From a virus (taxonomy: Duplodnaviria > Caudoviricetes), in IMG/VR virus record IMGVR_UViG_3300021255_004000, positions 32,001-96,000 of that record: a stretch of DNA of 64,000 nt; one strand, written 5' to 3'. Under the pieces are notes generated by a model that did no database searches, was not told where the DNA came from, and was given only the letters and a program-made list of their open reading frames with translations. Positions 27,034-59,768 of this stretch are shown here, in pieces (position 1 is the stretch's first letter; the number at the start of each line of letters is the position of its first letter). Made by a program: the position numbers and the translations under genes.

Positions 27034-27065
27034 TTAGCATTTATACCTGAAATTATATTAACAGC

Positions 27066-42600: not shown

Positions 42601-43169
42601 ATATTATGCAAAAGTGGATGATTCTTTTTATAGTCGAACTTCAAGCCGTCCTTTACAATTTTGACGATTTCATCGTAGCCTTTTTCATTACCATCAACGA
42701 CAACAAATGGGATTTTATTGGATTCGAGAAACTTGGATGTTTTTCCATCTATCTCTTTAGCTTCGCCTTCAGTTTGATTTCTTCCGTTAGGATTATATGG
42801 CTTCACACGATTGATGACGAAGTTGAAGTTGAAACGATGATACTTTTCAAACTCTTCAAGAGATGCAGCTTTCAACATTGGCTGATCTTCTCTTGCGTAC
42901 AATGCACCAAGAGCAATAGGGCTATCAGTGATAATTACATCGACTTTGCCAAAGCAGCGGCTTATTTTGAAAGACTGCTTTCCTGTAATGTAAAATTGAT
43001 TTTTGAAAACTTCAGAGTTGTTTTCCCAAACTTTATCTTTTGCAAACTCAGAAACATATTCACAGTCAATACCTGCAAGTTTGAGTTTTGCAAAAACATA
43101 AGCGGCGCCTGTAGATTTTCCTGCGCCTGGGCCAGCGAAAAGATTTACAATAATTGTGTTTTTATCCAT
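42597..43169 (-). CDS. P-loop kinase (NadR/nucleoside-kinase-like)
   Basis: AGPGAGKST, EFAK, ITDSP. Confidence 0.75.
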   Translation of the reverse strand: MDKNTIIVNLFAGPGAGKSTGAAYVFAKLKLAGIDCEYVSEFAKDKVWENNSEVFKNQFYITGKQSFKISRCFGKVDVIITDSPIALGALYAREDQPMLKAASLEEFEKYHRFNFNFVINRVKPYNPNGRNQTEGEAKEIDGKTSKFLESNKIPFVVVDGNEKGYDEIVKIVKDGLKFDYKKNHPLLHNI

Positions 43170-43183
43170 AGTTGGATATTAAC

Positions 43184-43207
43184 AAAAAAGGTTGCTAAAA
43201 AGCAACC
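43184..43207 (-). terminator. Intrinsic terminator ending the tRNA array
   Basis: GGTTGCT-tttt-AGCAACC-TTTTTT on minus strand. Confidence 0.75.
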
Positions 43208-43212
43208 AATTA

Positions 43213-43295
43213 CGGAACCTGCGTGAGTCGAACACGCTCAACCCGAAGGTTGTACAGCTTAGCAGGCTGCTGCATTACCGTCCTGCCCAGATTCC
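43213..43295 (-). tRNA. tRNA-Ser(GCT)
   Basis: Cloverleaf, loop CTGCTAA, long variable arm. Confidence 0.9.
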
Positions 43296-43304
43296 AAAAT
43301 ACTT

Positions 43305-43379
43305 TGTGAGTGGCAGGAGTCGAACCCGCCTTCATCTGATCCGTAGTCAGAGGCACCAATTCCGATATACCACACTCAC
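43305..43379 (-). tRNA. tRNA-Arg(ACG)
   Basis: Loop CTACGGA. Confidence 0.9.
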
Positions 43380-43389
43380 ATAAAATATA

Positions 43390-43503
43390 GGCCTGTTGTA
43401 AATAGTGCAAGATTTTCAGTCTCGTGTGTCACCGTTTCACCTCATCAGGAAACCCTGATGGTGGGAGTCGAACCCACTTACGATAATAGGAACAACTTTT
43501 GCC
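43390..43503 (-). ncRNA. Y-like stem RNA copy 1 with circularly permuted tRNA-Phe(GAA)
   Basis: Order T-arm, acceptor hairpin, D-arm, anticodon arm inside the conserved stem. Confidence 0.8.
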
Positions 43504-43510
43504 TTATGAA

Positions 43511-43584
43511 AGCATCATATCGGATTCGAACCGACCCCTACTGCTTGGAGGGCAGTCGTGCTGAGCCGCTAACACTAATGATGC
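43511..43584 (-). tRNA. tRNA-Gly(TCC), C33
   Basis: Loop CCTCCAA; U73. Confidence 0.85.
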
Positions 43585-43597
43585 ATATTAAAGTTTT

Positions 43598-43671
43598 TGG
43601 GACCTCGAGGATTTGAACCCCGCACCCAGACATTATGAGTGTCGCGCTCTGACCCAATGAGCTAAGATCCC
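43598..43671 (-). tRNA. tRNA-CAT (probably Ile2, possibly Met)
   Basis: Loop CTCATAA; GGG acceptor. Confidence 0.8.
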
Positions 43672-43674
43672 ATA

Positions 43675-44050
43675 AAGATTACACAGTACTAAGAATCTGT
43701 ATCGAACGTCGTACTCGGCGGGATCCTTTTCACTGATGAAGTTGAGTGGCTACTGTGTATCACCATTGATATGACCTGCCGTGGGACACGGGCTTCATCA
43801 TCCTTTGAGCAGCAGTTTTGAGTGACGAGTTCAAAACTTTATTGCCTCTAAGTGCCGCAGGTTCTGTCAGTTGTTTGAGAAGGACAGCGTATGTTAGACG
43901 CTTCCTTAATTATTGTACACTTGGTACAACAATCTCTCGTGTTTCCCTTGTCTTTCAAATCAGGCGCAAGTAAGAAACAAAGCGTTATGGAACCACACAT
44001 AATTCACATCATTTGTTGAACTCATAACCCTAGAAATGCCAAAATCCCTA
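43675..44050 (-). ncRNA. Candidate large structured ncRNA (~370 nt)
   Basis: No credible ORF; many hairpins; TGTTAATATA motif just upstream. Confidence 0.45.
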
Positions 44051-44074
44051 TGTTTTTATATTAACATATTCAAG

Positions 44075-44147
44075 TCAGCCACCTGGGATTTGAACCCAGA
44101 ACCTAAGGATTAAGAGTCCCTCGCGCTAACCGTTGCGCCAGTGGCCG
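44075..44147 (-). tRNA. tRNA-Lys(CTT)
   Basis: Loop CTCTTAA. Confidence 0.9.
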
Positions 44148-44152
44148 ATAAG

Positions 44153-44223
44153 TGAGCGATACGGGAGTTGAACCCGTCTCAGCAGATTAAAAGTCTGCGG
44201 CAAAACCGATTTGCTAATCGCCC
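44153..44223 (-). tRNA. tRNA-Lys(TTT)
   Basis: Loop CTTTTAA. Confidence 0.85.
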
Positions 44224-44233
44224 GTAAATTGTT

Positions 44234-44306
44234 TGAGCTTGATGGGAATCGAACCCACGACCCACAGATTAAAAGTCTGTTGCTCTACCTATTGAGCTAC
44301 AAGCCC
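44234..44306 (-). tRNA. tRNA-Lys(TTT)
   Basis: Loop CTTTTAA. Confidence 0.95.
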
Positions 44307-44400
44307 ATAAGATACTCAAACAATTTAACAGGCTTTGTCTAAGGCAGCAATTACTGCTGCCACTTCCGCATTTCCTCTCATAATCATAATTTACTCCTTG

Positions 44401-44473
44401 AGATGAGGATGGGACTCGAACCCACCTGTAACAGTTTTGCAGACTGCTGCCTCACCAATTTGGCTACCTCATC
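44401..44473 (-). tRNA. tRNA-Cys(GCA)
   Basis: Loop CTGCAAA, U73. Confidence 0.9.
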
Positions 44474-44484
44474 ATAATTTTATT

Positions 44485-44556
44485 TACCGCGTGAAGGAGT
44501 TGAACCTTCCTAAGCCGTCTTGTAAGGGCGGTGCACAACCGATGTACCAACGCGGT
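44485..44556 (-). tRNA. tRNA-Val(TAC)
   Basis: Loop CTTACAA. Confidence 0.85.
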
Positions 44557-44566
44557 ATAAAGTTGA

Positions 44567-44649
44567 CGGAAGCGACAGGAATCGAACCTGCGACCTTTTT
44601 AGGGGAGACTGTTTTCAAGACAGTTTGATGCGCCAACCAACTCGCTTCC
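44567..44649 (-). tRNA. tRNA-Ser(TGA)
   Basis: Loop CTTGAAA, long variable arm, G73. Confidence 0.85.
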
Positions 44650-44657
44650 AAATGTAG

Positions 44658-44730
44658 GGTGCCCATCGGGATTCGAACCCGACCCTGAAGATCCACAATC
44701 TGCCGTGCTAACCGCTAACACTATGGGTAC
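44658..44730 (-). tRNA. tRNA-His(GTG)
   Basis: Loop TTGTGGA, C73; no encoded G-1. Confidence 0.85.
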
Positions 44731-44732
44731 AT

Positions 44733-44805
44733 TGCTGAAGGCAGGATTCGGACCTGCTACATCTGCCTTATGAGGGCAGCGTTCAACCGTATGAACTTCT
44801 TCAAC
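44733..44805 (-). tRNA. tRNA-Met(CAT)
   Basis: Loop CTCATAA; T-loop TCCGAAT. Confidence 0.8.
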
Positions 44806-44812
44806 ATAATAG

Positions 44813-44883
44813 CCCAAACTCAGGGATTTGAACCCCGGCTAGATGATCTTCAGTCACCTGTGCTACCGCTACACCAAGTTTGG
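44813..44883 (-). tRNA. tRNA-Phe(GAA)
   Basis: Loop CTGAAGA; atypical G37 and G73. Confidence 0.75.
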
Positions 44884-44888
44884 ATATC

Positions 44889-44962
44889 TGTGGCATCGGG
44901 GATTCGAACCCCGAAAATTTGCGTTCTTAGCGCAACAAGTATGCCAGTTCCATCAATGCCAC
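44889..44962 (-). tRNA. tRNA-Leu(AAG), short variable loop
   Basis: Loop CTAAGAA; Leu-type D arm, 5-nt variable region. Confidence 0.8.
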
Positions 44963-45570
44963 AAAAGTGTATTAGTTCGTTCATCGTATCTAATAAAGAT
45001 ACAATGAAGTCTACTTTTAATGTAGTCCTCTCTGGCTTTATCTTTCATCTTTCCTTTAACAGAATTGTGATAGCCTTTCTTTTCATCATATTCAAAAGCA
45101 ATGTTCAATTCTTTGTCATAGCCATCAAGGTGATATGGTCCAACACAAACTTCTCCGCCATTCATAGCGTGTTGTAAATGCCAACCATATTTTGCGTTCA
45201 GCTCATCAATGAACTTACAAGCATTTTCATTATAATTGCAATAGTTACCAAGATTGTGTCTTTTCCGCATCATCTCAGCAAGTTTTGCTCTTGTTTCAGG
45301 CGTATGAGTGTGGCCTTTCTTAATCTCACGATTAGGATTCAGTCCACAGTATCTCATATGTTGTGTTTTTGACTCCTTATTATTGAAGATTCTTCCGCAA
45401 AAGTCACAAAAACAAGTTTCTTTTCTATGAAGAGACCTTCCCAAGGAGTCAAGTCCTTGTTCTAATCTTTTTTCACAAGTTTTCTTATGTTCAAAATAGT
45501 TTCTTCTACCTTGAACAACACAACCACAATATTCACATTTCCAATTTTGAGCGTTTTTGTATGTTTTCAT
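44953..45570 (-). CDS. Homing-type endonuclease (Zn fingers, NUMOD3-like, Vsr/PD-(D/E)xK)
   Basis: CEYC, CDFC, HTPETRAKL, LDGYD...FEYDE; 3' end overlaps tRNA-Leu. Confidence 0.75.
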   Translation of the reverse strand: MKTYKNAQNWKCEYCGCVVQGRRNYFEHKKTCEKRLEQGLDSLGRSLHRKETCFCDFCGRIFNNKESKTQHMRYCGLNPNREIKKGHTHTPETRAKLAEMMRKRHNLGNYCNYNENACKFIDELNAKYGWHLQHAMNGGEVCVGPYHLDGYDKELNIAFEYDEKKGYHNSVKGKMKDKAREDYIKSRLHCIFIRYDERTNTLLWH

Positions 45571-45622
45571 ATCAATTAGTAAAGATTGGAAGACACACTT
45601 AACATCTCAAACCCATATTAAC

Positions 45623-45692
45623 AAAAAAGGCAACTCCTAAGAGCCGCCTTGAAAGATTTGTAAACTGTTTCTGCTTACAACTTCAAGGCTCT
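45623..45692 (-). promoter_or_regulatory. Attenuator 3: antiterminator/terminator
   Basis: Terminator AAGGCGGCTC-ttag-GAGTTGCCTT-TTTT; its 5' arm can instead pair with GCCTTGAAG spanning the leader stop. Confidence 0.8.
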
Positions 45693-45811
45693 AATACGAA
45701 ATGTTTTCCAAAGAGAGAACGAAGGACCATCTTCGAACACATACCGCATCCCAATACGAAACTAACAAATGAGGAATGTTTAACTATGTTCGACATCTTT
45801 GAAAAATTCAT
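45683..45811 (-). CDS. Leader peptide 3 (42 aa) MNFSKMSNIVKHSSFVSFVLGCGMCSKMVLRSLFGKHFVLEP
   Basis: AAGGA RBS; composition matches downstream tRNAs. Confidence 0.8.
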   Translation of the reverse strand: MNFSKMSNIVKHSSFVSFVLGCGMCSKMVLRSLFGKHFVLEP

Positions 45812-45893
45812 ATTCGTCAATCCTTAGCTATCAGGTTGCTACCCAAAATGTTTTTTCTTATTGAATAGTTAGTAAACAATTCAATAAAGTAAG

Positions 45894-45966
45894 TGGACCT
45901 ACCGAGCATCGAACTCGGACCTCAGGATTGCAGATCCCGTATGCCAGCCATTAACACCTTAAGCCC
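45894..45966 (-). tRNA. tRNA-Ala(TGC), C33
   Basis: Loop TCTGCAA; G3:U70. Confidence 0.85.
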
Positions 45967-45971
45967 ATAAA

Positions 45972-46092
45972 AATCTTCTGTTTATCCGCGAAGGTTGTTA
46001 CCAACTCTTCTTTCCTCTTGGAGGAACTGCTTTGTTTATTCTCCCGCTCCCGCATAACGCGTCGGTGTTGCGTTAGGAATTCACAGAAGATT
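45972..46092 (-). ncRNA. Candidate structured small RNA
   Basis: 10-bp closing stem AATCTTCTGT/ACAGAAGATT with internal hairpins. Confidence 0.45.
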
Positions 46093-46094
46093 AG

Positions 46095-46167
46095 TGGACC
46101 GTAGGGGAGTCGAACCCCTCTTTCCAGCGTGCAAAGCTGGAGTACTAAGCCGATATACGAACAGCCC
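46095..46167 (-). tRNA. tRNA-Ala(TGC)
   Basis: Loop TTTGCAC; G3:U70. Confidence 0.9.
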
Positions 46168-46174
46168 AAAATTA

Positions 46175-46260
46175 AAAGCGGGTTGTAAAAATTTCGCCGC
46201 AATGACGAAATATTGGAGTCGAACCAATAATTTCCGTTTAATAGGAACAACCTTTGCTTT
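46175..46260 (-). ncRNA. Y-like stem RNA copy 2 (T-arm plus acceptor-like hairpin)
   Basis: AGC-AAA-GGTTGT-TCCTA...ATTGG-TTCGACT-CCAAT...ACAACC-C-GCT. Confidence 0.75.
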
Positions 46261-46261
46261 A

Positions 46262-46333
46262 TTCCTCTGCTAGGATTCGAACCCAGAACAACTGATCCAG
46301 AGTCAGCAGTGTTACCAATTACACCACAGAGAA
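46262..46333 (-). tRNA. tRNA-Gln(CTG)
   Basis: Loop CTCTGGA. Confidence 0.9.
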
Positions 46334-46334
46334 G

Positions 46335-46406
46335 TCGGACGAGAAGGAGTTGAACCTTCGAAATCTCGGTCCCAGGCCGAGTGACATACCGCTTGCCGAC
46401 CGTCCG
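46335..46406 (-). tRNA. tRNA-Pro(TGG), C33
   Basis: Loop CCTGGGA; C1:G72, A73. Confidence 0.85.
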
Positions 46407-46414
46407 AAAATGAA

Positions 46415-46486
46415 AGCACCTGAAGGGAGTTGAACCCTCGCCTCAGCCTTGGCAAGGCCGCGTACTAGCCGTTATACTACAAGTAC
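46415..46486 (-). tRNA. tRNA-Gly(GCC)
   Basis: Loop TTGCCAA. Confidence 0.9.
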
Positions 46487-46495
46487 ATAAAATAT

Positions 46496-46570
46496 TGGGG
46501 TGGGTGGAATTGAACCACCGTGTAACCAACTAACCTTTCTGCGGTTTATCAGACCGAGGGTATACACCCC
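46496..46570 (-). tRNA. D-armless tRNA-Ile(GAT)-like RNA
   Basis: Acceptor GGGGTG/CACCCC, CGGT-CTGATAA-ACCG, long variable region, canonical T arm, no D stem. Confidence 0.6.
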
Positions 46571-46587
46571 ATTGTGTTTCAAGTTTT

Positions 46588-46660
46588 CAGGTGCGGAGAG
46601 ATTCGAACTCCCACCGACGGACTTGGAAACCGTAATGCTAAACCTTTACACCACGCACCT
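46588..46660 (-). tRNA. tRNA-Trp(CCA)
   Basis: Loop TTCCAAG; A1:U72, G73. Confidence 0.8.
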
Positions 46661-46668
46661 ATAAATCA

Positions 46669-46721
46669 TTAAAGGCTCAACTTTTAGTTGAGCCTGTAAA
46701 ATCCAAATTTTACTAGGCTCA
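46669..46721 (-). promoter_or_regulatory. Attenuator 2: antiterminator/terminator
   Basis: TGAGCCT-a-GTAAAAT-ttgg-ATTTTAC-AGGCTCA competes with AGGCTCAAC-taaaa-GTTGAGCCT. Confidence 0.8.
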
Positions 46722-46853
46722 CTTGATCTGCCACTGTCCTGAAATTGGGGCAATAGCTGCAACTGGTGCAAAGCCGGCGAAAGAAACTGGAAGACTAATG
46801 TGGCCGGCAAGTTTTACTGACTTAACTGATTTACAAACCATCATTGCTTTCAT
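46719..46853 (-). CDS. Leader peptide 2 (44 aa) MKAMMVCKSVKSVKLAGHISLPVSFAGFAPVAAIAPISGQWQIK
   Basis: AGGAG/AAGGA RBS, TGTTAATATA motif upstream; stop TGA begins the antiterminator arm. Confidence 0.8.
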   Translation of the reverse strand: MKAMMVCKSVKSVKLAGHISLPVSFAGFAPVAAIAPISGQWQIK

Positions 46854-46958
46854 ATTGTCCTTTCTCCTATAATTTTATATTAACAACTTTTCAGAAGTTT
46901 CTGAAAAATTATTTTCAATATTTAGTTAGTACAGTTGCAAAAACTGTAAGAGTTTTAA

Positions 46959-47040
46959 TCGGCCAGGAGAGACTCGAACTCTCAATCCACACGGCGTCCG
47001 ACCTTAATTCGGATGTGTATACCAATTCCACCACTGACCG
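46959..47040 (-). tRNA. tRNA-Leu(TAA)
   Basis: Loop ATTAAGG, long variable arm. Confidence 0.85.
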
Positions 47041-47047
47041 AACAAAA

Positions 47048-47230
47048 TTAACTATCCTTTAAGTATGCAACAGTTTTTCCATTTTCAAACATTTCTTGTT
47101 GAAGTTTGGAAATCTTGTTGTAAAGATCTTGGCAAATGCCTTTTGATCTTCCACTTAAATGGAAGCGTGCCATATGTCCTAGCACGAATGCAAGTTCTTG
47201 CAATCTCTCGTTATCGAGTTTGATTGTCAT
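47048..47230 (-). CDS. Small hypothetical protein
   Basis: AAGGAG RBS before MTIKLD. Confidence 0.55.
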   Translation of the reverse strand: MTIKLDNERLQELAFVLGHMARFHLSGRSKGICQDLYNKISKLQQEMFENGKTVAYLKDS

Positions 47231-47275
47231 ATAGACTCCTTGCACCACCAATTTTTTAATGAAATTGGAAACATT

Positions 47276-47342
47276 GGCGAGCTGTAGCAAATATACATTA
47301 ACAGTGTATTGCCTCATCGGCGTAATAGGAACAACTTATGCC
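47276..47342 (-). ncRNA. Y-like stem RNA copy 3 displaying an Asn(GTT) anticodon stem-loop
   Basis: GGC-ATA-AGTTGT-TCCTA...ATACA-CTGTTAA-TGTAT...ACAGCT-C-GCC. Confidence 0.75.
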
Positions 47343-47351
47343 TAACATGTG

Positions 47352-47433
47352 TGGCCGCAGGAAGTTTTGCCATCTCTTCGTCCCCCGACTTACAAGGTCG
47401 GTGCTCTTAGGGCAGTCTGAGCTACATTTGGCC
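47352..47433 (-). pseudogene. Aberrant tRNA-Thr(TGT)-like element
   Basis: D arm and CCGAC-CTTGTAA-GTCGG intact; T loop and acceptor non-canonical. Confidence 0.5.
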
Positions 47434-47434
47434 T

Positions 47435-47740
47435 TTGCTGCATCATAAAAAGACAACGCAGCGAAATCCGAAGTTTTTCTTTCAGTTGCCACAACCAAGT
47501 ATTTTTCAACCCACGTCTCATTAAGACAACCTACACTGGAGCTTTTGGTAAAACTTTCTACCCATATTCATCATACGGTAACCATTGTAAAGGCCTTTAT
47601 GCTTGTTCCGCCAGGCTCCCCGCTGACCAAGCTGATGTCTCGGTAATTTTTCATACCAGCCTCACCTTGGGCTCATACTTCCTTTCCCCAAGTACTCTTA
47701 GGTTTTCACGCGACCTAAACTATCCCACGAGTTTGAAAGA
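47435..47740 (-). ncRNA. Candidate large structured ncRNA (~300 nt)
   Basis: GC-richer than coding DNA, many hairpins, no credible ORF. Confidence 0.4.
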
Positions 47741-47751
47741 GTTTGCTTTCT

Positions 47752-48054
47752 CTAGTAATAACACCACCATTTGATACGACAAGTTTCACTGTCGAAGCAT
47801 TCAGTAAGAATGTTATCAATTTCCTCTTCCGTTGTATCAATATTAACAGATTTCAGTCTGCTTCTGATAAGTCCACGAGAATCTTTTTTCTTCTCGGAAC
47901 GGTCTCCTTTCATCGCACGGCGAGCGTAACGATCACAAGGATTTCCCCAACGGAACCAGAATCTTCGAGCTTCCTGTGTACCGCGTCTTGCGGTATATTC
48001 ACCGTAGCTGAAGTTTGCCTTATAAAAGGCGCTCTCGCAATAATCATTTAACAT
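47752..48054 (-). CDS. Small basic hypothetical protein
   Basis: AGGAG RBS; 100 aa. Confidence 0.6.
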   Translation of the reverse strand: MLNDYCESAFYKANFSYGEYTARRGTQEARRFWFRWGNPCDRYARRAMKGDRSEKKKDSRGLIRSRLKSVNIDTTEEEIDNILTECFDSETCRIKWWCYY

Positions 48055-48251
48055 CTAGTGTATCTCCTACACTATCCGTAAGTCATACGCGATCCTCCTA
48101 TTATAGCATCATCGTTCACAGGATCGAACTGCAACCGTACAGACCTTTAGAGCCTATCCGTTTTACCCCACACAGGGCGATGTTGCTTATGGTTGAACGA
48201 GATGGCAACAACATTACTTGTACACCAACGTCATCTGCTATAAAACTAAGA

Positions 48252-48333
48252 TGGGCCAAAGGAGAGTCGAACTCCTAATCCTTTCGGCGACTGCTTTTGA
48301 GGCAGTTGCGTATACCAGTTCCGCCATTAGCCC
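48252..48333 (-). tRNA. tRNA-Leu(CAA)
   Basis: Loop CTCAAAA, long variable arm. Confidence 0.9.
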
Positions 48334-48339
48334 AAATGA

Positions 48340-48412
48340 TTGCGGGAGGTGGACTCGAACCACCGACCTTCGGGTTATGGGCCCGATAAGCTGCCAACTG
48401 CTCTATCCCGCG
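48340..48412 (-). tRNA. tRNA-fMet(CAT), C33
   Basis: C1:A72 mismatch, GGG/CCC anticodon stem, loop CCCATAA. Confidence 0.9.
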
Positions 48413-48427
48413 ATGTAACATGTGTTT

Positions 48428-48503
48428 TGACGCTGACAGGACTCGAACCTGCGACACCGAGCTTAGAAGGCTCGTGTTCTTATTCCAGCTGAACTACAGC
48501 GCC
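48428..48503 (-). tRNA. tRNA-Arg(TCT)
   Basis: Loop CTTCTAA. Confidence 0.9.
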
Positions 48504-48685
48504 ATATTGAAAGTACTTTATACGTCGGACCAGTCCGTTCAGCTTTCGCCTAGGGAGTTTCGAGGCTCCCACCTACGCATATCAACTTTCTGTGTGCTTT
48601 TCGGGCTTCTTCTACTAAGCACTTAAACTTTCAGTTCTGCTAGAAACCAAAGTTCTTGACGTTCTCTCTAGCAATGAGAACCGTA

Positions 48686-48760
48686 TAGCTGTTGCAGGAG
48701 TCGAACCTGCTATCGTAAAGGATATGAGCCTCACATATTGAACCGTTCTACCCAACAGCG
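48686..48760 (-). tRNA. tRNA-Met(CAT)-like, initiator-like variant
   Basis: Loop CTCATAT; 1:72 mismatch; weak D stem. Confidence 0.65.
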
Positions 48761-48767
48761 ACGTACA

Positions 48768-48891
48768 AAAAGACGAGTTGTATTATTCGTGCTCTAACCG
48801 CTGAGCTATCCGCCCACGAACGAGCGGAGTTGGATTCGAACCAACGACCCCGTGCTTAAAAGGCAACAAATAGGAACAACTTATGTCTTTT
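48768..48891 (-). ncRNA. Y-like stem RNA copy 4 with circularly permuted tRNA-Lys(TTT)
   Basis: TGC-CTTTTAA-GCACG, T arm, acceptor hairpin, D arm, then CG, all inside the conserved stem. Confidence 0.85.
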
Positions 48892-48893
48892 AG

Positions 48894-48966
48894 CGGTGTA
48901 TGCGGGAATCGAACCCGCCATCTCCTGCGTGACAGGCAGGCGAAATAGCCGATATTCAAATACACC
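48894..48966 (-). tRNA. tRNA-Asp(GTC)
   Basis: Loop CTGTCAC, G73. Confidence 0.9.
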
Positions 48967-49175
48967 AAATAAACAAACCACCTTCCAAACGGAACGCCCG
49001 ATACTTGATCTTAATGTCCGCACTTATCCAAGAGTTTCATTTCGCGCGAGAAACTCTCGGGGGTTAGGGAGCTACAGGTGCCTAGGCTTACTACGATTAA
49101 GCCAACAAATGCGAGCTCGTCTCACAAAGGTTTGTACTTTTTGCCAACTTCTGTCTAGAATGAAGTTGAAAGTAG

Positions 49176-49263
49176 TGGGCCGAGAGGGAGTCGAACCCCC
49201 GATGTTTGCCGTAAAGGTGACGGATTTACAGTCCGCTGACTTCGCCACTGGTCACACCGACCC
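49176..49263 (-). tRNA. tRNA-Tyr(GTA)
   Basis: Loop CTGTAAA, long variable arm. Confidence 0.9.
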
Positions 49264-49329
49264 ATAAAATTGATGGCCGTGCTCATCACACATTTACAAC
49301 ATCGTTTCGAGCAATGTTACCATCAAGTA

Positions 49330-49402
49330 AGCTACTTGTAGGACTTGAACCCACAACATCCTGATTACAGGTCAGGCGCTCTACCATTGGAGCTAAAGTA
49401 GC
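49330..49402 (-). tRNA. tRNA-Thr(TGT), C33
   Basis: Loop CCTGTAA; G1:C72, C2:G71. Confidence 0.85.
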
Positions 49403-49558
49403 ACAATAAAAGATAAATTACATTTTTTCTTTCCATACATCTTTCATTCTAATTTGTCCGCGGTCACTGAACGAAGAAGATGGTTGTATTAGATGTTCTA
49501 TAACTTTTCGGGGCCTTAAGCCCGTATTGAGTGTTTCAACATCAGTCTCTTATCTTTA

Positions 49559-49631
49559 AGCCGCCTGAGGGATTTGAACCCACAACATCCGCATTACAGG
49601 TGCGGCGCTCTACCATTGGAGCTAAGGAGGC
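49559..49631 (-). tRNA. tRNA-Thr(TGT), C33
   Basis: Loop CCTGTAA; paralogue of 49330-49402. Confidence 0.85.
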
Positions 49632-49634
49632 ATA

Positions 49635-49706
49635 CAGTTCCGAAAGGAGTCGAACCTTCGTTCTCTGGATGAAAACCAGATGGCCTAGCCGTTAGCCGAC
49701 GGAACC
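49635..49706 (-). tRNA. tRNA-Glu(TTC)
   Basis: Loop TTTTCAT. Confidence 0.9.
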
Positions 49707-49787
49707 AAAAACTGTGAACTACTTCTAAGACTGGACGGAAGTATAGCAGCTCGTTCAAAAGATATATTGACTTTCAAACTTTTGTCT

Positions 49788-49872
49788 CGTATCAGGCAGG
49801 GCTCGAACCTGCGATGGGCTTTCGCTCGGCAGATTAACAGTCTGCTGTCTTCGACCACTCGACCACTGATAC
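49788..49872 (-). tRNA. tRNA-Asn(GTT) with long variable arm
   Basis: Loop CTGTTAA, G73, class-II-like body. Confidence 0.85.
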
Positions 49873-49879
49873 ATATTTA

Positions 49880-50431
49880 TTATGTTAAAAAGATTTTTAC
49901 TTCTTCTATAAAGATTTTAGGATTATTGAAAATATCTTTCCAAGATTTTCTCAATTCTTTCCATCCTTCTTCATTCAGAAGTTTATCTTTCTGAACATCT
50001 CTTTCTTTTTGCTCTTGAAATCTTTCGTGTTGTTCACCATCAATTTCAACGCAAAGTTTTTTGTCAGGCCAAGCAAAGTCCAAAGAAAACCTATGAAAAG
50101 GAACTTCTCTGTAATAATCTTTATCAATTTCTTGACCAAATTCATTTCTCATCATTGTAATAAACCACTCCTCAGGATATGAAGGTTTATTATTCCAACG
50201 ACAATCTCCAATGTTATGAGCTCGACCTTCAGCGTGAGCTTTTTTCATCGAAGCAGAAATCTTTTGTCTAACATCATCCGACATTGTATGTCCGCAATGA
50301 TCCTTCAACTTCTGTCTTGTTTCTTCTGACAAAACAGGTTTTTCTTTTCCAAGAGCTTTAGCCTTAGTATATTGATTTGTACCGTGGCCTTTTCTTGCGT
50401 GCATTGCATCGTACCATTTTTGACTTTTCAT
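49880..50431 (-). CDS. Homing-type endonuclease (NUMOD3-like plus Vsr/DUF559-like)
   Basis: SEETRQKL, SDDVRQKIS repeats; LDFAW...VEIDGEQH...D..L...GW. Confidence 0.8.
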   Translation of the reverse strand: MKSQKWYDAMHARKGHGTNQYTKAKALGKEKPVLSEETRQKLKDHCGHTMSDDVRQKISASMKKAHAEGRAHNIGDCRWNNKPSYPEEWFITMMRNEFGQEIDKDYYREVPFHRFSLDFAWPDKKLCVEIDGEQHERFQEQKERDVQKDKLLNEEGWKELRKSWKDIFNNPKIFIEEVKIFLT

Positions 50432-50519
50432 ATCAATTAGTACGGTCCTCCGCTCTACATGTGTCCCTATCGTCGGAACCTATTGTCAACATCTTATCGT
50501 CGGTCCCTATTGTCGGTAG

Positions 50520-50593
50520 CGGGATATGCGAGCATCGAACTCGCGACCTCTAGCGTGACAGGCTAGCGTGGTAGCCAACTCCACCAATACCCC
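50520..50593 (-). tRNA. tRNA-Asp(GTC)
   Basis: Loop CTGTCAC. Confidence 0.9.
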
Positions 50594-50807
50594 AAAATTG
50601 TAGGTATAAGAAACCTTTTGCAAGGAAAGGAATTACCCGTATGCCTTTTACCAGCCAACAACTTGTTCAGTAGTTCCATTTCTGTTATCTGACCAATAGT
50701 GTTTCTACTGGCTCTGACAAGTTATCAACCAAGGATTCGAACCTTCCACCGAACGATACCACGAGGTGGCAGCAACCAAGCTGTTATTTTATTCCGTTTA
50801 ACGTTCT

Positions 50808-50880
50808 TAGATCTTGCGGGGATCGAACCCACTCCTCCACCTTGAAAGGGTGGCGACTCAACCTTTTTGTCCTAAGATCC
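50808..50880 (-). tRNA. tRNA-Glu(TTC)
   Basis: Loop CTTTCAA. Confidence 0.85.
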
Positions 50881-50935
50881 ATATTTGAAGTTTCCTTCTT
50901 TTGTTGTAAACCTTTTGTATCGGTTTTACAGAAAT

Positions 50936-50964
50936 AATATAAAAGAAGTTTTTTCAAAGTTCAA
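50936..50964 (-). promoter_or_regulatory. Early-type promoter TTGAAC-N17-TATATT upstream of tRNA block 1
   Basis: Conserved repeat. Confidence 0.8.
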
Positions 50965-50999
50965 AAATTTTTATTTTTTTGCAATTTTTGTTATAAAAC

Positions 51000-51061
51000 A
51001 AAAAAGGCAAACCTTCATCGGTTTGCCTCAGGGAAACATTTCTCAGTTCTCTAAGGCAACC
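51000..51061 (-). promoter_or_regulatory. Attenuator 1: antiterminator/terminator
   Basis: Terminator AGGCAAACC-gatgaa-GGTTTGCCT followed by a T tract; GGTTGCCTTAG (leader end and stop) pairs with CTGAGGCAAACC. Confidence 0.8.
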
Positions 51062-51173
51062 TTGTATCTTCATTATAATCGTATTCATCTGTAGTGATAG
51101 CAGTTCTAACATCATTATTCAATAATGATCTTGTTGTGAGAACTTCTGCTGTCAATGAATACAATGAAGTCAT
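51051..51173 (-). CDS. Leader peptide 1 (40 aa) MTSLYSLTAEVLTTRSLLNNDVRTAITTDEYDYNEDTRLP
   Basis: AAGGAAGG RBS, ACTAAT motif upstream; composition matches downstream tRNAs. Confidence 0.8.
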   Translation of the reverse strand: MTSLYSLTAEVLTTRSLLNNDVRTAITTDEYDYNEDTRLP

Positions 51174-51267
51174 TTTTAATAGCCCTTCCTTAATATATTT
51201 CAATTAGTACAACCCTTAAAAATGTAAGAGTTGTAATTTGTTCCTCGTATATTTATATTAACAGATT

Positions 51268-51867
51268 TTAGTCTTCTGCTGTAGGAATTTCAATTCCAAA
51301 CAGTTTTGATAACTTATCTTTCCAATTAAGGAAATCATCGTTATGGCCGCCATCTGCATAATAAGTTACACCGTCATAAATCTTATCATAATTTGATAAG
51401 AAAGCTTTACAGAACTCTTCGTTCTCAGGATCGCCATCGCTGGCAGTATCATAAAGCTCGTCAATAAGTGTATCAAGCTTCTCAATGCAGTTTGCTGCTG
51501 CTTCATAGTTTGTCCAAACTCTTGAGAGAATTTGGAATAAACTTATCAACTTCATAAACTTATGCTTCAAAGCATCTGTTTTGATTACATCATACATATC
51601 AGAAAGTTCGCCGCCTACAATAACTGGGACGCCATTCAATCTTTCAAATGCGTGACATAATTCGTGTGCAACATATTTAGGCAAGTCCTCTTTGGAAACT
51701 TTTTTCCAAACAGAAATACTCTTTTCTGAAATGTTGTACTTTGCTTTCATTCCTGTGTAGTCAAAGTCGACAACATTTATAGAAACACTTGGACACGGAA
51801 TACCTGCATCCTCAAGCTTATCAAGCAAATTGTCTAAACACGCCTGTGCATCTTCTTGTTTAATCAT
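51268..51867 (-). CDS. Zincin-like (HExxH) protein
   Basis: VAHELCH; AGGAG RBS. Confidence 0.6.
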   Translation of the reverse strand: MIKQEDAQACLDNLLDKLEDAGIPCPSVSINVVDFDYTGMKAKYNISEKSISVWKKVSKEDLPKYVAHELCHAFERLNGVPVIVGGELSDMYDVIKTDALKHKFMKLISLFQILSRVWTNYEAAANCIEKLDTLIDELYDTASDGDPENEEFCKAFLSNYDKIYDGVTYYADGGHNDDFLNWKDKLSKLFGIEIPTAED

Positions 51868-52035
51868 AAACGGTACTCCTAATATTTAGTTATAGGAGAA
51901 AGAGTTCTCGCCGGTTTTAATTTCTCAAACTACAGCCCCGCTACCTGCATTCGATTTTTGCAAGCCATACGAGTAGCATCACTGCTGCGAGGTTGATGGG
52001 ACTTTCACCCATAGTGACGTTTAACGAACTCCTAA

Positions 52036-52124
52036 TTCGGAAGGCGGGATTCGAACCTGCACGACGCTGATATGCGTCACCAGAATCAAAGTCTGGGGAG
52101 ATACCAATTACTCTTTACTTCCGA
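52036..52124 (-). tRNA. tRNA-Gln(TTG) with long variable arm
   Basis: Loop CTTTGAT; GACGC-atatca-GCGTC extra arm. Confidence 0.7.
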
Positions 52125-52244
52125 GTAAAATAGTTTTCTCACTCTTGTTTGCAACGCGACGCAAGATTCCAATAGGTGGACATATCCGATATTCCTATTA
52201 TACGGAAGGCCCTTAAGCGCATCTACTGCCGCGAGAAAACTATA

Positions 52245-52576
52245 GGTGAACCAAGGACTTGAACCTTGCCGTTACTCCAGCCTTGCGAGCTTCACGGATC
52301 CAACAGTGTCCACCATCATTATAAGTGCAGTCGGGAATTGAACCCGCTCTCAGCTGGCGTGATCCGCGTGGGACGAAGCCGTGCCTTTTTCCTTCATCGC
52401 ACTTAACAAGCCTTACGGATTGCTCCTGCTTGTAATGGAGTCTTAGAGGTTTGACTGCCAACCTTTAGAACATAGAGGATTCGAACCTCAGTTTCTGAGC
52501 ATACTACACTCAGCGTTCTAGACCCTGCCCTACTTTGCTGTGCACTGCTTTTTCGAGCTTTCGAACTAATGTTCTC
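52245..52576 (-). ncRNA. Three tRNA-like RNAs with acceptor and T arm but non-canonical interior
   Basis: T arms CAAGG-TTCAAGT-CCTTG, CGGG-TTCAATT-CCCG, GAGG-TTCGAAT-CCTC, each with paired ends. Confidence 0.55.
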
Positions 52577-52706
52577 CTTTGACGGTATCAACTTCATCCT
52601 GCGTCGTCATATACAGGCCTTTACCATCCGGTGCTTCCAGCGGTTGAGTATAACTCCTCATATTTCCCGTTCTCTGTGTAGCCATCTACGTTGAAGTTGT
52701 CAAATA

Positions 52707-52779
52707 TAGTTCCTACGGGGCTTGAACCCATTTTTCGAGCTTGAGAGGCTCGCGAATTAGCCAGTTATTCGAAGGAACC
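52707..52779 (-). tRNA. tRNA-Glu(CTC)
   Basis: Loop CTCTCAA. Confidence 0.85.
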
Positions 52780-52784
52780 AAAAA

Positions 52785-53015
52785 TTACATCTCAGGAATA
52801 AGCGTGCCATCTTTTAACCAAGCTTTTGGAGTAAAGTTTGGCATAGGCTGTAATGTTTCAAAAGACCACCAAGCATTATCATTTTTATCCCAAAGACCAT
52901 AACCAATGCCTTTTGAACCATCACTGTTAAAACCTACAAGAAGAACGACACCTTGATCTTTCCCTGCTTCCAAGTCAAAATTCCAAGTTGCTTCAACTGT
53001 TACTGTCTTTGCCAT
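52785..53015 (-). CDS. Small hypothetical protein
   Basis: GGAGG RBS, early promoter upstream. Confidence 0.65.
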   Translation of the reverse strand: MAKTVTVEATWNFDLEAGKDQGVVLLVGFNSDGSKGIGYGLWDKNDNAWWSFETLQPMPNFTPKAWLKDGTLIPEM

Positions 53016-53047
53016 ACTCGCCTCCTTGTTTGCGTTTTGACAATAAT

Positions 53048-53076
53048 AATATAAAAGAATGTTTGAAAAAGTTCAA
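53048..53076 (-). promoter_or_regulatory. Early-type promoter TTGAAC-N17-TATATT
   Basis: Conserved repeat. Confidence 0.8.
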
Positions 53077-53149
53077 AAATTCTTAAATATTTTTCAAAAA
53101 AAAATACCTGCAGCAACAGCCACAGGTATTATATTAACACTTTAGGCTA

Positions 53150-54337
53150 TTACTGTTGAACCTGCTGTTGAGCTTGCTCCAAAGCTAAGTTTGGATTTTC
53201 CTGAGCAACCTGAATTGCCTGAGCAACAACATCAGGATTGATATTTGCACCAAGCTGATTTCCATATCTTTTATAGAAATTAAGAGCTGCACCAACATTC
53301 TTACAGCGAATTGCTGCTGCTGCGAGAATCATATTCTCGACTCCATTATGATTTTGGAAGAACTGTGGAAGATCATTTCGAAGTCCCTGCTCGCCCTGTG
53401 CATTTGCCTGACCTAAGAACTTGGAAATATAATTTACCAATTCTTTAGCTCCTGCATCAGTACCATCAAAATTGTTAAGTTGCTTTACGATTGCATTTGC
53501 AGTCATATTAGCAGAAGCTTCGTTCATTTGAATAAGACTTTCAAAGAAGTTGGTTTTCTCATCTTTAGCAGGTTTAGCAGCTTCAAGGATTTCATTAAAC
53601 AAACTTTCTTTGAAGCCAAGCTTCTGAAGAATTGAAGATTTTGCTTGTGGCTGCGCAGCAGTTGGCATTACAGTTCCAGTGTTGTTATCAACAACCTGAG
53701 CATTCTTGTTCATTGACATATCAGGCTTTTCAGGAGACCAATCCTGCATTGCTGCTTTTTCTTTTGCTGGAGCAGCAGCGTAAGCTTTCTGAAACTTGTC
53801 AACACGAGCAGCTGCGGCAGGAGACATTGAGTTCTTTGCTGCAACTGGGTTAGCCCAAGCAGTTTTATCAGGTCCCATAGGAACGCCTACATAAACACCT
53901 GTTTTATCAACTTCTGCCTGTCCTCTTCCGTTAGGCCCTGGTGTTATATCACGAATGCCTTTGTTAGCAAGATCACCAGCAAGAGCGCGGCCTGATGCTT
54001 CGCCGTTTGCATACTGCATTGTTCCGCCAATCTGTGCTTCACGAATGTTTACTGACCAGTTCTTTTCGATTTTTGGAAGTATTCCTCTTACCCATCTCAT
54101 CAAACTGTTAAACTGTTCAGGATTTTCTGTTGGATGTTCTTCATCAATCTTTCCTGCGATGTATTCAACAATTCCTATATCTGGGTCATTTACGCCTGCG
54201 TCAACATCTTCGCAATATCTGCCATACCAAAAGTCAACATCAGCTTCAAGACCATCATAAGAATCAAAAAAGTTTCCTTCGCGGAAAGTATCATATGCAT
54301 ATCCTCTGTTAAGGAGGTCCTCAATCATCTTTTCCAT
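53150..54337 (-). CDS. Probable head internal protein
   Basis: ACTAAT motif; IRE, FKES, ILEA, MNEA putative cleavage sites. Confidence 0.55.
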   Translation of the reverse strand: MEKMIEDLLNRGYAYDTFREGNFFDSYDGLEADVDFWYGRYCEDVDAGVNDPDIGIVEYIAGKIDEEHPTENPEQFNSLMRWVRGILPKIEKNWSVNIREAQIGGTMQYANGEASGRALAGDLANKGIRDITPGPNGRGQAEVDKTGVYVGVPMGPDKTAWANPVAAKNSMSPAAAARVDKFQKAYAAAPAKEKAAMQDWSPEKPDMSMNKNAQVVDNNTGTVMPTAAQPQAKSSILQKLGFKESLFNEILEAAKPAKDEKTNFFESLIQMNEASANMTANAIVKQLNNFDGTDAGAKELVNYISKFLGQANAQGEQGLRNDLPQFFQNHNGVENMILAAAAIRCKNVGAALNFYKRYGNQLGANINPDVVAQAIQVAQENPNLALEQAQQQVQQ

Positions 54338-59512: not shown

Positions 59513-59534
59513 TTATGATACCTCCGTATAAATA

Positions 59535-59768
59535 TTAACAAACTTCTTTAAGGAAGTCGAACTTGATAAGATTTTTATAAGATGTTCCTGATGAACCTGA
59601 TCCTTTTGCAATTTTCAAAGGAAGTTCACCATTCTTGTGAATAATTGCATTTCCTTTAGGAGATTCTTCAACACCAAAAACTTCTCCTTCTTTAAGTTCA
59701 ATCGATGTAAACTTGCCTTCCTGACGGCCATAGATGATCCAATTTGAAGTTGTTTTGAATGTTTTCAT
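59535..59768 (-). CDS. Small hypothetical protein
   Basis: AAGGAG RBS, early promoter upstream. Confidence 0.6.
   Translation of the reverse strand: MKTFKTTSNWIIYGRQEGKFTSIELKEGEVFGVEESPKGNAIIHKNGELPLKIAKGSGSSGTSYKNLIKFDFLKEVC

What the first reader, a model, noticed from the sequence alone, without database searches (positions are those of the whole stretch)
46669..46890. Attenuator 2 (Ala/Gly/Pro/Ile/Gln/Trp sensor) with a nested second signature
Residues 26-43 match the adjacent block (Trp, Ile, Gly, Pro, Gln, Ala, Ala) at 15 of 18 positions; both Gln codons are CAG and all Pro codons are CCA. All other residues (M, K, V, C, S, L-CTT, H, F) are amino acids of the next block downstream, and D, E, N, T, Y and R are absent. 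The stop TGA is the first three bases of the antiterminator arm TGAGCCT. No other promoter motif lies between this terminator and tRNA-Trp, making it the cleanest test case, although its U tract is weak. The two-part leader may reflect an ancestral single attenuator for blocks 2 and 3 (inference).
Basis: partly seen in the sequence, partly recalled or inferred. Interest (0 to 1): 0.85.

Follow-up and report, generated by a model that had tools for sequence, protein, structure and literature searches.

The report
Leader-peptide attenuator before phage tRNA genes
In an uncultured giant rumen/gut phage, a 44-codon mini-gene written only in the amino acids of the tRNA genes behind it ends inside an RNA hairpin that competes with a transcription stop signal, so it probably lets transcription run into those tRNA genes when ribosomes decode slowly, a control published so far only for amino-acid operons.

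Summary
On the minus strand, window 46853-46719 is a Shine-Dalgarno-led 44-codon ORF. Residues 26-43 hit the next tRNA block (Trp, Ile, Gly, Pro, Gln, Ala) at 15 of 18. Residues 2-25 hit the block after it at 19 of 24. D, E, N, T, Y and R, the amino acids of the upstream block, are absent. Its UGA is the first three bases of a 14-bp hairpin whose 3' arm is the 5' arm of a terminator hairpin ending 12 nt before tRNA-Trp.

The unit recurs in three phage clades. In each, the hairpin starts at the stop codon while its inner stem differs in sequence and length. Where tRNA genes changed block, leader-2 codons mostly followed (Arg AGR, Cys, Gln CAA/CAG, Leu CTY). Two sister units in the same array share the design.

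Caveats:
- The U tract is weak.
- CAG and CCA usage is not diagnostic.
- Single variants do not avoid the "forbidden" residues.
- A whole-leader self-versus-cross-genome score showed no tracking.
- Nothing is shown experimentally.
- The "ancestral single attenuator" idea has no support.

I found no paper describing this control. This scan has noted the same kind of element before: twice in this genome and in at least eight other phage genomes.

The parts
46924..46950 (-). Promoter-like element: CTTACA (46950-46945) then TGTACTAACT (motif TACTAAYT at 46931-46924)
   Evidence: TACTAAYT occurs 11 times in the window against 4.5 expected. It lies upstream of all three leaders and of seven ordinary genes. 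One RNA-library contig ends at 46917, 7 nt downstream of the motif. That is a weak hint only.
46877..46884 (-). Second promoter-like motif GTTAATAT, 24 nt upstream of the ATG
   Evidence: 16 copies in the window against 2.3 expected, mostly about 20 nt upstream of start codons or directly after terminators. Which motif drives the leader is not known.
46858..46868 (-). Shine-Dalgarno region AGGAGAAAGGA
   Evidence: Read from the sequence. Kept in all relatives, including clades X and Y.
46719..46853 (-). Leader ORF 2: 44 codons plus TGA. Codons 2-25 are mostly block-3 amino acids; codons 26-43 are mostly block-2 amino acids.
   Evidence: There are 33 peptide clusters of 39-44 aa in metagenomes.
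46689..46721 (-). Antiterminator hairpin UGAGCCU-a-GUAAAAU uugg AUUUUAC-AGGCUCA. Its first three bases are the stop codon.
   Evidence: dG is -15.1 kcal/mol, z about -6 against shuffles. It forms first in prefix folds. A 14-17 bp hairpin starting at UGA is present in all three clades, with different inner stems.
46673..46695 (-). Terminator hairpin AGGCUCAAC uaaaa GUUGAGCCU. It shares 46695-46689 with the antiterminator.
   Evidence: dG is -14.3 kcal/mol. All cells pair in 8 distinct sequences, with one C-G to U-A double change.
46661..46672 (-). Weak U tract UUAAUGAUUUAU, running into the 5' end of tRNA-Trp
   Evidence: Not called by the terminator scan. Clade X has UUUUUUGAUUU at this place.
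45893..46661 (-). Gated tRNA block 2: Trp(cca), Ile(gat), Gly(gcc), Pro(tgg), Gln(ctg), Ala(tgc) x2
   Evidence: ARAGORN and Rfam. The ARAGORN call of Arg(cct) at 46204-46280 is not supported by Rfam.
45615..45874 (-). Sister unit 3 (promoter motif, leader MNFSKMSNIVKHSS..., antiterminator, canonical terminator). It follows block 2 with no terminator in between.
51000..51210 (-). Sister unit 1 (leader MTSLYSLTAEVLTTRSLLNNDVRTAITTDEYDYNEDTRLP, antiterminator, canonical terminator) before the Glu/Asp/Asn/Thr/Tyr/Arg/Met/Leu block

Best explanation
This is a ribosome-mediated (leader-peptide) transcription attenuator that gates a block of phage tRNA genes.

Proposed steps:
1. Transcripts from the promoter-like motifs just upstream, and read-through transcripts from further upstream, carry a 44-codon ORF.
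2. If ribosomes translate it quickly, the lead ribosome reaches UGA. It then covers the 5' arm of the antiterminator, about 15 nt, which is roughly its downstream footprint. The shared strand AGGCUCA pairs with GUUGAGCCU instead, and RNA polymerase stops before tRNA-Trp.
3. If the ribosome lags at codons whose charged tRNAs are scarce, the antiterminator forms first and transcription runs on. The codons concerned are Ala, Ile, Pro, Gly, Gln and Trp near the end of the ORF, and Lys, Ser, Val, Met, Leu, His, Phe and Cys earlier in it.
4. Read-through transcripts cover Trp-Ile-Gly-Pro-Gln-Ala and continue to attenuator 3 and block 3.

The likely signal is decoding capacity for the very tRNAs the unit controls, that is, product feedback on tRNA supply.

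Shown: the ORF, its conservation, the two exclusive helices and their conservation, the composition match, and RNA-library contigs that span the unit.

Inferred: translation of the ORF, termination at the hairpin, and the response to tRNA supply.
For: 1. Anatomy. A Shine-Dalgarno-led ORF has its stop codon as the first 3 nt of a -15.1 kcal/mol hairpin. The 3' arm of that hairpin is the 5' arm of a -14.3 kcal/mol terminator stem 12 nt before tRNA-Trp. Prefix folds give the antiterminator first.

2. Conservation with change.
- In seven distinct sequences of three clades the hairpin begins at U of UGA.
- It is 14-17 bp long and its inner stem is rewritten between clades: GUAAAAU/AUUUUAC, UAUAAAA/UUUUAUA, UAUAGAACA/UGUUUUGUA.
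- One C-to-U change in the shared strand is matched by G-to-A in the terminator arm and tolerated as G-U in the antiterminator.

3. Composition. 15/18, 19/24 and 0/43 are each rare in the phage's own proteins: 35 of 13,807 windows, 0 of 12,857 and 4 of 12,857.

4. Two sister units in the same array share the design. Each is biased to its own block: 30/39 for leader 1 and 36/41 for leader 3. The leader-to-own-block match holds in three genomes.

5. Tracking across clades.
- Arg(tct) lies in block 2 only in clade Y. AGR codons occur in leader 2 only there (1, 2, 1 against 0 in five genomes).
- tRNA-Cys lies upstream only in clade Y. Leader 2 has no Cys there, against 1-2 elsewhere.
- Gln(ttg) goes with CAA and Gln(ctg) with CAG.
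- Loss of Leu(aag) goes with CTY falling from 2 to 0-1.
- In clade X, Ser(tga) moved out of block 3 and leader 3 lost all 6-7 TCN codons.

6. The leader region is better conserved than the tRNA it precedes: 7 of 52 variable columns in the hairpin region, against 46 of 72 in tRNA-Trp.

7. Contigs from four metatranscriptome studies bridge the leader, the terminator and tRNA-Trp. Array depth is far above that of the flanking coding DNA.
Against: - There is no experimental datum. The RNA data are contigs and cannot show 3' ends or regulation.
- The U tract is weak in this clade (UUUAAUGAUUU), so termination may be inefficient.
- The regulatory codons are scattered, with one Trp and two Gln, rather than in runs as in his or phe leaders. 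Sensitivity to any one tRNA should therefore be low.
- No protector helix (trp 1:2 type) was found, so an untranslated leader would read through.
- Codon-level specificity is weak. 9 of 43 codons are not read by any array tRNA under strict wobble. Relatives use CCC/CCT. The CAA/CAG switch follows genome-wide usage.
- Variant residues in relatives do not avoid D/E/N/T/Y/R: about 13 of 37 variant types.
- Leaders scored on their own genome's blocks do no better than on the window's blocks.
- Some tRNAs (Ala, Tyr) were not found in some loci although their codons stay. Leader 3 keeps two Cys codons in clade Y.
- The polymerase that reads the array, and whether translation is coupled to it in the host, are unknown.
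Confidence: 0.62

Rival explanations
1. A translation-coupled terminator switch without codon specificity. It reports only whether ribosomes are loading and following the polymerase (general translation capacity or phase of infection). On this reading the amino-acid bias of the leader has another cause or is inherited.
For: The three-segment design gives read-through whenever the ORF is not translated to its end. The regulatory codons are dispersed. Codon-level matching is weak. Variants do not avoid upstream-block residues. The self-versus-cross-genome score shows no tracking.
Against: Three leaders in one array have three different, complementary compositions that match their own blocks. This holds in three clades. 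Several codon changes follow relocated tRNA genes. A general sensor needs none of this.
Confidence: 0.15
2. The hairpins are RNA processing or stability signals for the tRNA precursor (for example RNase III, E or P entry sites, or a 5' cap-like stem), and the ORF is incidental to them.
For: The structures lie directly at the 5' end of tRNA-Trp. The U tract is poor for a terminator. Read-through RNA contigs exist.
Against: The two helices share a strand and cannot coexist. The 5' helix always starts at the stop codon of a conserved Shine-Dalgarno-led ORF. The sister units carry canonical terminators with long U tracts.
Confidence: 0.07
3. An ordinary small-protein gene (a 44-aa hydrophobic peptide with a function of its own) followed by its terminator. 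The complementarity at the stop codon and the composition match would be chance.
For: The N-terminal half and the motif SFAGF...GQW are conserved as peptide across clades. Gene callers predicted it in many assemblies.
Against: There is no Pfam match. Variation by codon position is 7, 9 and 13 columns, and synonymous counts roughly equal non-synonymous counts, so selection on the peptide is weak. The composition statistics and the stop-codon/antiterminator geometry are each improbable, and both are repeated in three units.
Confidence: 0.06
4. A nascent-peptide arrest leader (TnaC or SecM style). The conserved peptide stalls the ribosome in response to a small molecule or factor rather than to tRNA supply.
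For: Q-W lies 2-3 residues before the stop and SFAG is invariant in all clades. The rare GCC codon of that motif is conserved.
Against: A stall at or near the stop codon would cover the antiterminator arm and favour termination. The sister leaders share no such motif. The composition match is left unexplained.
Confidence: 0.05

Closest known systems
Multivalent leader-peptide attenuators of enterobacterial amino-acid operons (ilvGMEDA leader: Leu/Val/Ile; thr leader: Thr/Ile). Named from established knowledge; general mechanism as summarised in PMC1183508.
   Same: A short translated leader ORF is enriched in several amino acids related to the controlled genes. An intrinsic terminator competes with an antiterminator, and the position of the ribosome decides between them.
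   Different: The controlled genes here are tRNA genes, not biosynthetic enzymes. Six to fourteen amino acids are represented, mostly as scattered single codons. No protector (1:2) helix was found. The stop codon itself is the base of the antiterminator. The element is in a phage.
trp operon attenuator (trpL) of E. coli (established knowledge)
   Same: A ribosome at the leader stop codon blocks the antiterminator so that the terminator forms. A stall upstream frees the antiterminator. As I recall for trp, the terminator is also thermodynamically stronger than the antiterminator.
   Different: trp has four segments, so an untranslated leader terminates. Here there are three segments, so an untranslated leader should read through. 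trp senses one amino acid through two adjacent codons.
   Same: Leader-peptide attenuation applied to a gene of the decoding apparatus, so that the level of charged tRNA feeds back on the apparatus.
   Different: It controls a synthetase rather than tRNA genes, and senses a single amino acid with a run of Phe codons.
T-box riboswitches (Rfam T-box family)
   Same: A terminator/antiterminator switch that responds to tRNA status and controls translation-related genes.
   Different: T-boxes bind uncharged tRNA directly and need no ORF. No T-box or any other Rfam family matches 46662-46900.

Membership tests
Ribosome-mediated (leader-peptide) transcription attenuator | Short ORF with a ribosome-binding site in the leader, upstream of the controlled genes | tested here: met
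   A 44-codon ORF with AGGAGAAAGGA 5-15 nt before the ATG. It is conserved in 33 peptide clusters and three clades.
Ribosome-mediated (leader-peptide) transcription attenuator | Regulatory codons that correspond to the product of the controlled genes | tested here: met
   Met in an altered sense: the amino acids of the downstream tRNAs. The figures are 15/18 for block 2, 19/24 for block 3 and 0/43 for upstream-block residues. The match holds in three clades. Codon-level tracking is partial.
Ribosome-mediated (leader-peptide) transcription attenuator | Intrinsic terminator (G+C-rich hairpin plus U tract) between the ORF and the controlled genes | tested here: inconclusive
   A 9-10 bp hairpin of -14.3 kcal/mol is present and conserved. 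The U tract is UUUAAUGAUUU and fails the scanner. Clade X has UUUUUUGAUUU.
Ribosome-mediated (leader-peptide) transcription attenuator | Antiterminator helix that shares a strand with the terminator | tested here: met
   46721-46689 overlaps 46695-46673 in AGGCUCA. All cells pair in 8 sequences. The inner stem is rewritten between clades.
Ribosome-mediated (leader-peptide) transcription attenuator | Geometry in which a ribosome at the end of the ORF blocks the antiterminator | tested here: met
   UGA is nt 1-3 of the hairpin in every clade. The 5' arm is 14-17 nt, about a ribosome's downstream reach. The reach itself comes from established knowledge.
Ribosome-mediated (leader-peptide) transcription attenuator | Protector (anti-antiterminator, trp 1:2 type) helix that gives termination without translation | tested here: not met
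   Only a 5-bp GGCUU/GAGCC pairing is possible, and it is not kept in relatives. This feature defines the trp-type four-segment form, not attenuation as such.
Ribosome-mediated (leader-peptide) transcription attenuator | Read-through rises when the cognate charged tRNA is limiting | not testable with these tools
   This needs coupled transcription-translation or infected-cell assays.
T-box riboswitch | Specifier loop and conserved T-box sequence recognised by the Rfam model | tested here: not met
   cmscan at E up to 0.1 over 43000-53500 gives only tRNAs and weak unrelated hits, and nothing in 46662-46900.

The most novel reading that the evidence does not exclude
Giant phages run a tRNA homeostat. 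Each block of phage tRNA genes sits under product feedback through a mini-gene spelled in its own codons. The phage would then raise exactly the tRNAs that run short, for example after host shut-off or when defence nucleases cut host tRNAs. Phage tRNAs are known to counter such systems (PMC11555353, PMC11464382). Leader 2 would be a two-tier sensor: it opens for shortage of its own block and of the block behind it, because its transcripts also feed that block.
Probability: 0.4. Interest if true: 0.9.

Novelty: new variant of a known kind. Interest (0 to 1): 0.78.

Why it matters
Leader-peptide attenuation is a textbook mechanism, but as far as I could find it has been described only for amino-acid biosynthesis and a few related genes, never for tRNA genes. 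Five searches of the held library found no account of it.

If real, it would have these consequences:
- Phage tRNA arrays are regulated on demand rather than expressed constitutively.
- There would be a direct readout of what phage tRNAs are for: supply when decoding fails.
- tRNA arrays would be linked to the arms race around tRNA-cutting defence systems.
- It would offer compact, natural codon-specific sensors for synthetic biology.

This unit is directly testable. It has no promoter motif between the terminator and the first tRNA, and it has natural variants with a stronger U tract.

Tried and rejected
- DNA searches. A search of the phage collection found only tRNA hits. An exact scan of viral contigs with the terminator sequence found nothing. 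The CCA-enzyme search of viral contigs also found nothing. No whole genome is held for the window.
- Metagenome scan with the terminator pattern. It gave only two loci, both with the window's own peptide, so it is not a useful independent sample of ORF integrity.
- Ascertainment. Relatives were mostly found through the called peptide, so in-frame conservation of leader 2 is partly ascertainment and I do not count it as evidence.
- Read laying. All runs were contigs. They show no starts, ends or strand. The common contig ends at 45608-45611 coincide with a homing-endonuclease insertion in the window and say nothing about termination.
- Shuffle controls for the two helices are not significant, because close relatives vary little (71/500 and 500/500). 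The support comes from the distant clades folded one by one.
- Codon-level claims. CAG x2 has P about 0.48 given usage. CCA x3 has P about 0.05 and is not conserved.
- Self-versus-cross-genome scoring of whole leaders gave no signal.
- Leaders 2 and 3 show no similarity, so I rejected duplication or an ancestral fused attenuator as an explanation supported by data.
- Rare-codon enrichment is not significant for leader 2 as a whole (3 of 43, P 0.16). It is significant only for GCC among Ala codons (3 of 8, P 0.002).
- Pfam gives nothing for the peptide.

Full report
**Setting.** Window 43.2-52.8 kb carries about 36 tRNA genes, all on the minus strand.
- The DNA has no close relative among deposited phages or IMG/VR contigs.
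- Relatives occur in cattle, sheep and other gut metagenomes. Some are contigs of about 293 kb.
- Neighbouring genes include a CCA-adding enzyme, an AAA_28 ATPase and a T4-type RNA ligase 1.
I did not test that.

**The observation.**
- On the minus strand, 46853-46719 is an ATG-started 44-codon ORF preceded by AGGAGAAAGGA.
- Residues 26-43 (AGFAPVAAIAPISGQWQI) carry 15 of 18 residues from W/I/G/P/Q/A. These are the amino acids of the seven tRNA genes that follow: Trp, Ile, Gly, Pro, Gln, Ala, Ala.
- Residues 2-25 carry 19 of 24 from L/F/M/H/S/V/C/K, the amino acids of the next block.
- D, E, N, T, Y and R, which are specific to the upstream block, are absent.
- Against sliding windows of 38 long ORFs of the same window these values are rare: 35 of 13,807, 0 of 12,857 and 4 of 12,857. 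Binomial values are 2e-6, 3e-5 and 1e-8.
- The three blocks together partition all twenty amino acids, with Met and Leu doubled.

**The RNA switch.**
- The stop codon UGA (46721-46719) opens the hairpin UGAGCCU-a-GUAAAAU-uugg-AUUUUAC-AGGCUCA (46721-46689; -15.1 kcal/mol; z about -6).
- Its last seven bases start the terminator stem AGGCUCAAC-uaaaa-GUUGAGCCU (46695-46673; -14.3 kcal/mol).
- The stem is followed by UUAAUGAUUUAU and then tRNA-Trp.
- The two helices cannot coexist.
- Folding growing prefixes gives the antiterminator as soon as AGGCUC is made. The full sequence prefers the terminator plus the inner stem (-18.2 kcal/mol).
- No convincing upstream partner for the stop-codon arm exists, so this is a three-segment switch: untranslated RNA should read through.
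- A 7-nt complement to the terminator arm within 13 nt of the stop codon arises in 13 of 5,000 shuffles. The sister units give 26 and 7 of 5,000.

**Sister units.** Two further units in the array have the same order of parts. The order is a CTTAC...TACTAAYT motif, a Shine-Dalgarno sequence, a 40-42 codon ORF, a stop codon in or next to the antiterminator arm, and a terminator.
- Their terminators are canonical and were called by the scanner.
- Leader 1 has 30 of 39 residues from its block (E/D/N/T/Y/R/M/L).
- Leader 3 has 36 of 41 from its block.
- No terminator lies between block 2 and leader 3. Transcripts that pass attenuator 2 therefore reach attenuator 3. This gives a functional reason for block-3 codons in leader 2.

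**Relatives.** Peptide searches found 33 clusters of 39-44 aa. Fetched loci are syntenic. They fall into three clades:
- Clade W: the window and its close relatives.
- Clade X: L019, L025, L026.
- Clade Y: L020, L023, L024.

Within clade W:
- The promoter region, the first 21 codons and the hairpins are nearly invariant.
- The tRNA-Trp behind them comes in two very different versions: 46 of 72 variable columns, against 7 of 52 in the hairpin region.
- Variation by codon position is 7, 9 and 13 columns. Synonymous and non-synonymous codon differences are about equal. The peptide as such is therefore weakly constrained, above all in its second half.

Across clades:
- The hairpin always begins at U of UGA and ends in GG(C/U)UCA.
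- It is 14-17 bp long, with dG of -12.3 to -20.0 kcal/mol.
- Its inner stem differs in sequence and length.
- In L020 a C-to-U change in the shared strand is compensated by G-to-A in the terminator arm and tolerated as G-U in the antiterminator.
- Clade X has a proper U tract.

**Does the leader follow the tRNAs?** In all three clades each leader matches its own block best, and leader 2 matches blocks 2 and 3. Several tRNA genes have changed block, and leader codons mostly follow:

| Change in tRNA content | Response in the leaders |
|---|---|
| Arg(tct) in block 2 only in clade Y | AGR codons in leader 2 only there (1, 2, 1 against 0 in five genomes); AGR in leader 1 falls from 2-3 to 1 |
| tRNA-Cys in block 1 only in clade Y | Leader 1 gains a Cys codon; leader 2 loses its 1-2 |
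| Gln(ttg) instead of Gln(ctg) | CAA instead of CAG |
| Leu(aag) replaced by Leu(tag) | CTY in leader 2 falls from 2 to 0-1 |
| Ser(tga) moved to block 2 in clade X | Leader 3 falls from 6-7 TCN codons to none and uses AGY |

Misses:
- Leader 3 of clade Y keeps two Cys codons.
- GGR codons stay in leader 2 of clade Y.
- Ala and Tyr tRNAs were not detected in some loci although their codons remain.
- The CAA/CAG switch parallels genome-wide usage.
- A whole-leader self-versus-cross-genome score shows no gain.
- These are only two independent contrasts, so the tracking is suggestive, not proven.

- CAG is the phage's normal Gln codon (0.69).
- CCA (0.36) is replaced by CCC/CCT in close relatives.
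- Most relatives have Cys, not Gln, at position 42.
- Among variant residues in relatives, about 13 of 37 types are D/E/N/T/Y/R, equal to background. Exclusion of these residues is a property of the consensus, not a strict rule.
- Leaders 2 and 3 show no similarity.

**RNA data.**
- Contigs from four metatranscriptome studies span the leader, the terminator and tRNA-Trp/Ile: 46614-46917, 46462-46951, 46530-47339 and 46497-47046.
- Summed depth over the array is tens to hundreds. It is near zero over the flanking coding DNA in three of the runs.
- This fits transcription of the unit and some read-through. Contigs cannot show ends or regulation.

**Comparison with known systems.** The design is that of ribosome-mediated attenuation (PMC1183508 for the general scheme). 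It is closest to the multivalent ilv and thr leaders.
- It differs in its target (tRNA genes), in the number and scatter of regulatory codons, in lacking a protector helix, and in placing the stop codon at the base of the antiterminator.
- It is not a T-box: no Rfam family matches.
- Five literature searches found no description of leader-peptide control of tRNA genes.
- Papers on phage tRNAs that overcome tRNA-cutting defences (PMC11555353, PMC11464382) give a plausible selective setting.

**Earlier notes of this scan.** The scan already holds follow-ups of the two sister units here and of similar units in at least eight other phage genomes. One carries a later check that rated the bold reading at 30 in 100. 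I treated these as leads only. That check tempered my confidence.

**Verdict.** The attenuator reading is well supported by anatomy, conservation and composition, but untested. It is a new variant of a known mechanism. This particular unit has the weakest terminator of the three. It also has the best structural covariation and the interesting two-tier leader.

Noticed in passing
window, 16 sites, e.g. 46877-46884, 45615-45622, 43176-43183, 27055-27062, 59532-59539 (mostly minus strand): The motif GTTAATAT occurs 16 times against 2.3 expected. It usually lies about 20 nt upstream of a start codon or directly after a terminator's T run (TTTTTTGTTAATAT). It is probably a second promoter class beside TACTAAYT. 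One copy lies downstream of terminator 3, so block 3 may have a bypass promoter.
   Followed up: partly
window 46587-46661 against L001:10184-10259 and others: tRNA-Trp behind the conserved leader comes in two strongly different sequence types among close relatives, while the leader and hairpins are almost unchanged. This suggests modular exchange of tRNA genes by recombination at the conserved units.
   Followed up: partly
window 44953-45570 and 49880-50431 (minus strand); L019, L001, L006 and L015 at other places: Homing-endonuclease-like ORFs (DUF559/HNH/zinc-finger) are inserted at different points of the tRNA array in different relatives. Each has its own TACTAATT motif 4 nt before the ATG. 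In the window, one separates attenuator 3 from its tRNA block.
   Followed up: no
window 46805-46810 and 46775-46780 (minus strand, codons 16-17 and 26-27): The rare Ala codon GCC (3% of Ala codons) is used 3 times in 8 in leader 2. Two of these are in the self-complementary GCCGGC, which can pair to make a hairpin inside the ORF followed by UUU. This could be a pause site or a slow-decoding site. Only the second copy is kept in all clades.
   Followed up: partly
window 46168-46261 (minus strand): ARAGORN calls a tRNA-Arg(cct) that overlaps tRNA-Gln, and Rfam does not support it. The 94-nt gap between tRNA-Gln and tRNA-Ala is unexplained.
   Followed up: no
window 47212-47913: This stretch has the highest summed depth in the RNA-library contigs (up to 612 in one run). 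It has only an 89-aa ORF at its edge and no good ORF over most of it, so it may hold an abundant non-coding RNA.
   Followed up: no
L001:12437, L013:8047, L007:7405; L020:4045: At a lowered threshold ARAGORN reports a tRNA-like gene with a four-base anticodon (gtta) between tRNA-His and tRNA-Ser in close relatives. It also reports a tRNA with anticodon tta (reads UAA) in L020, where a sister locus has Leu(taa). Neither was verified.
   Followed up: no
L004:2614-2687 and L025:7350: In two relatives the block-2 tRNA-Pro has anticodon ggg instead of tgg. In L004 the only Pro codon of leader 2 is CCC.
   Followed up: partly
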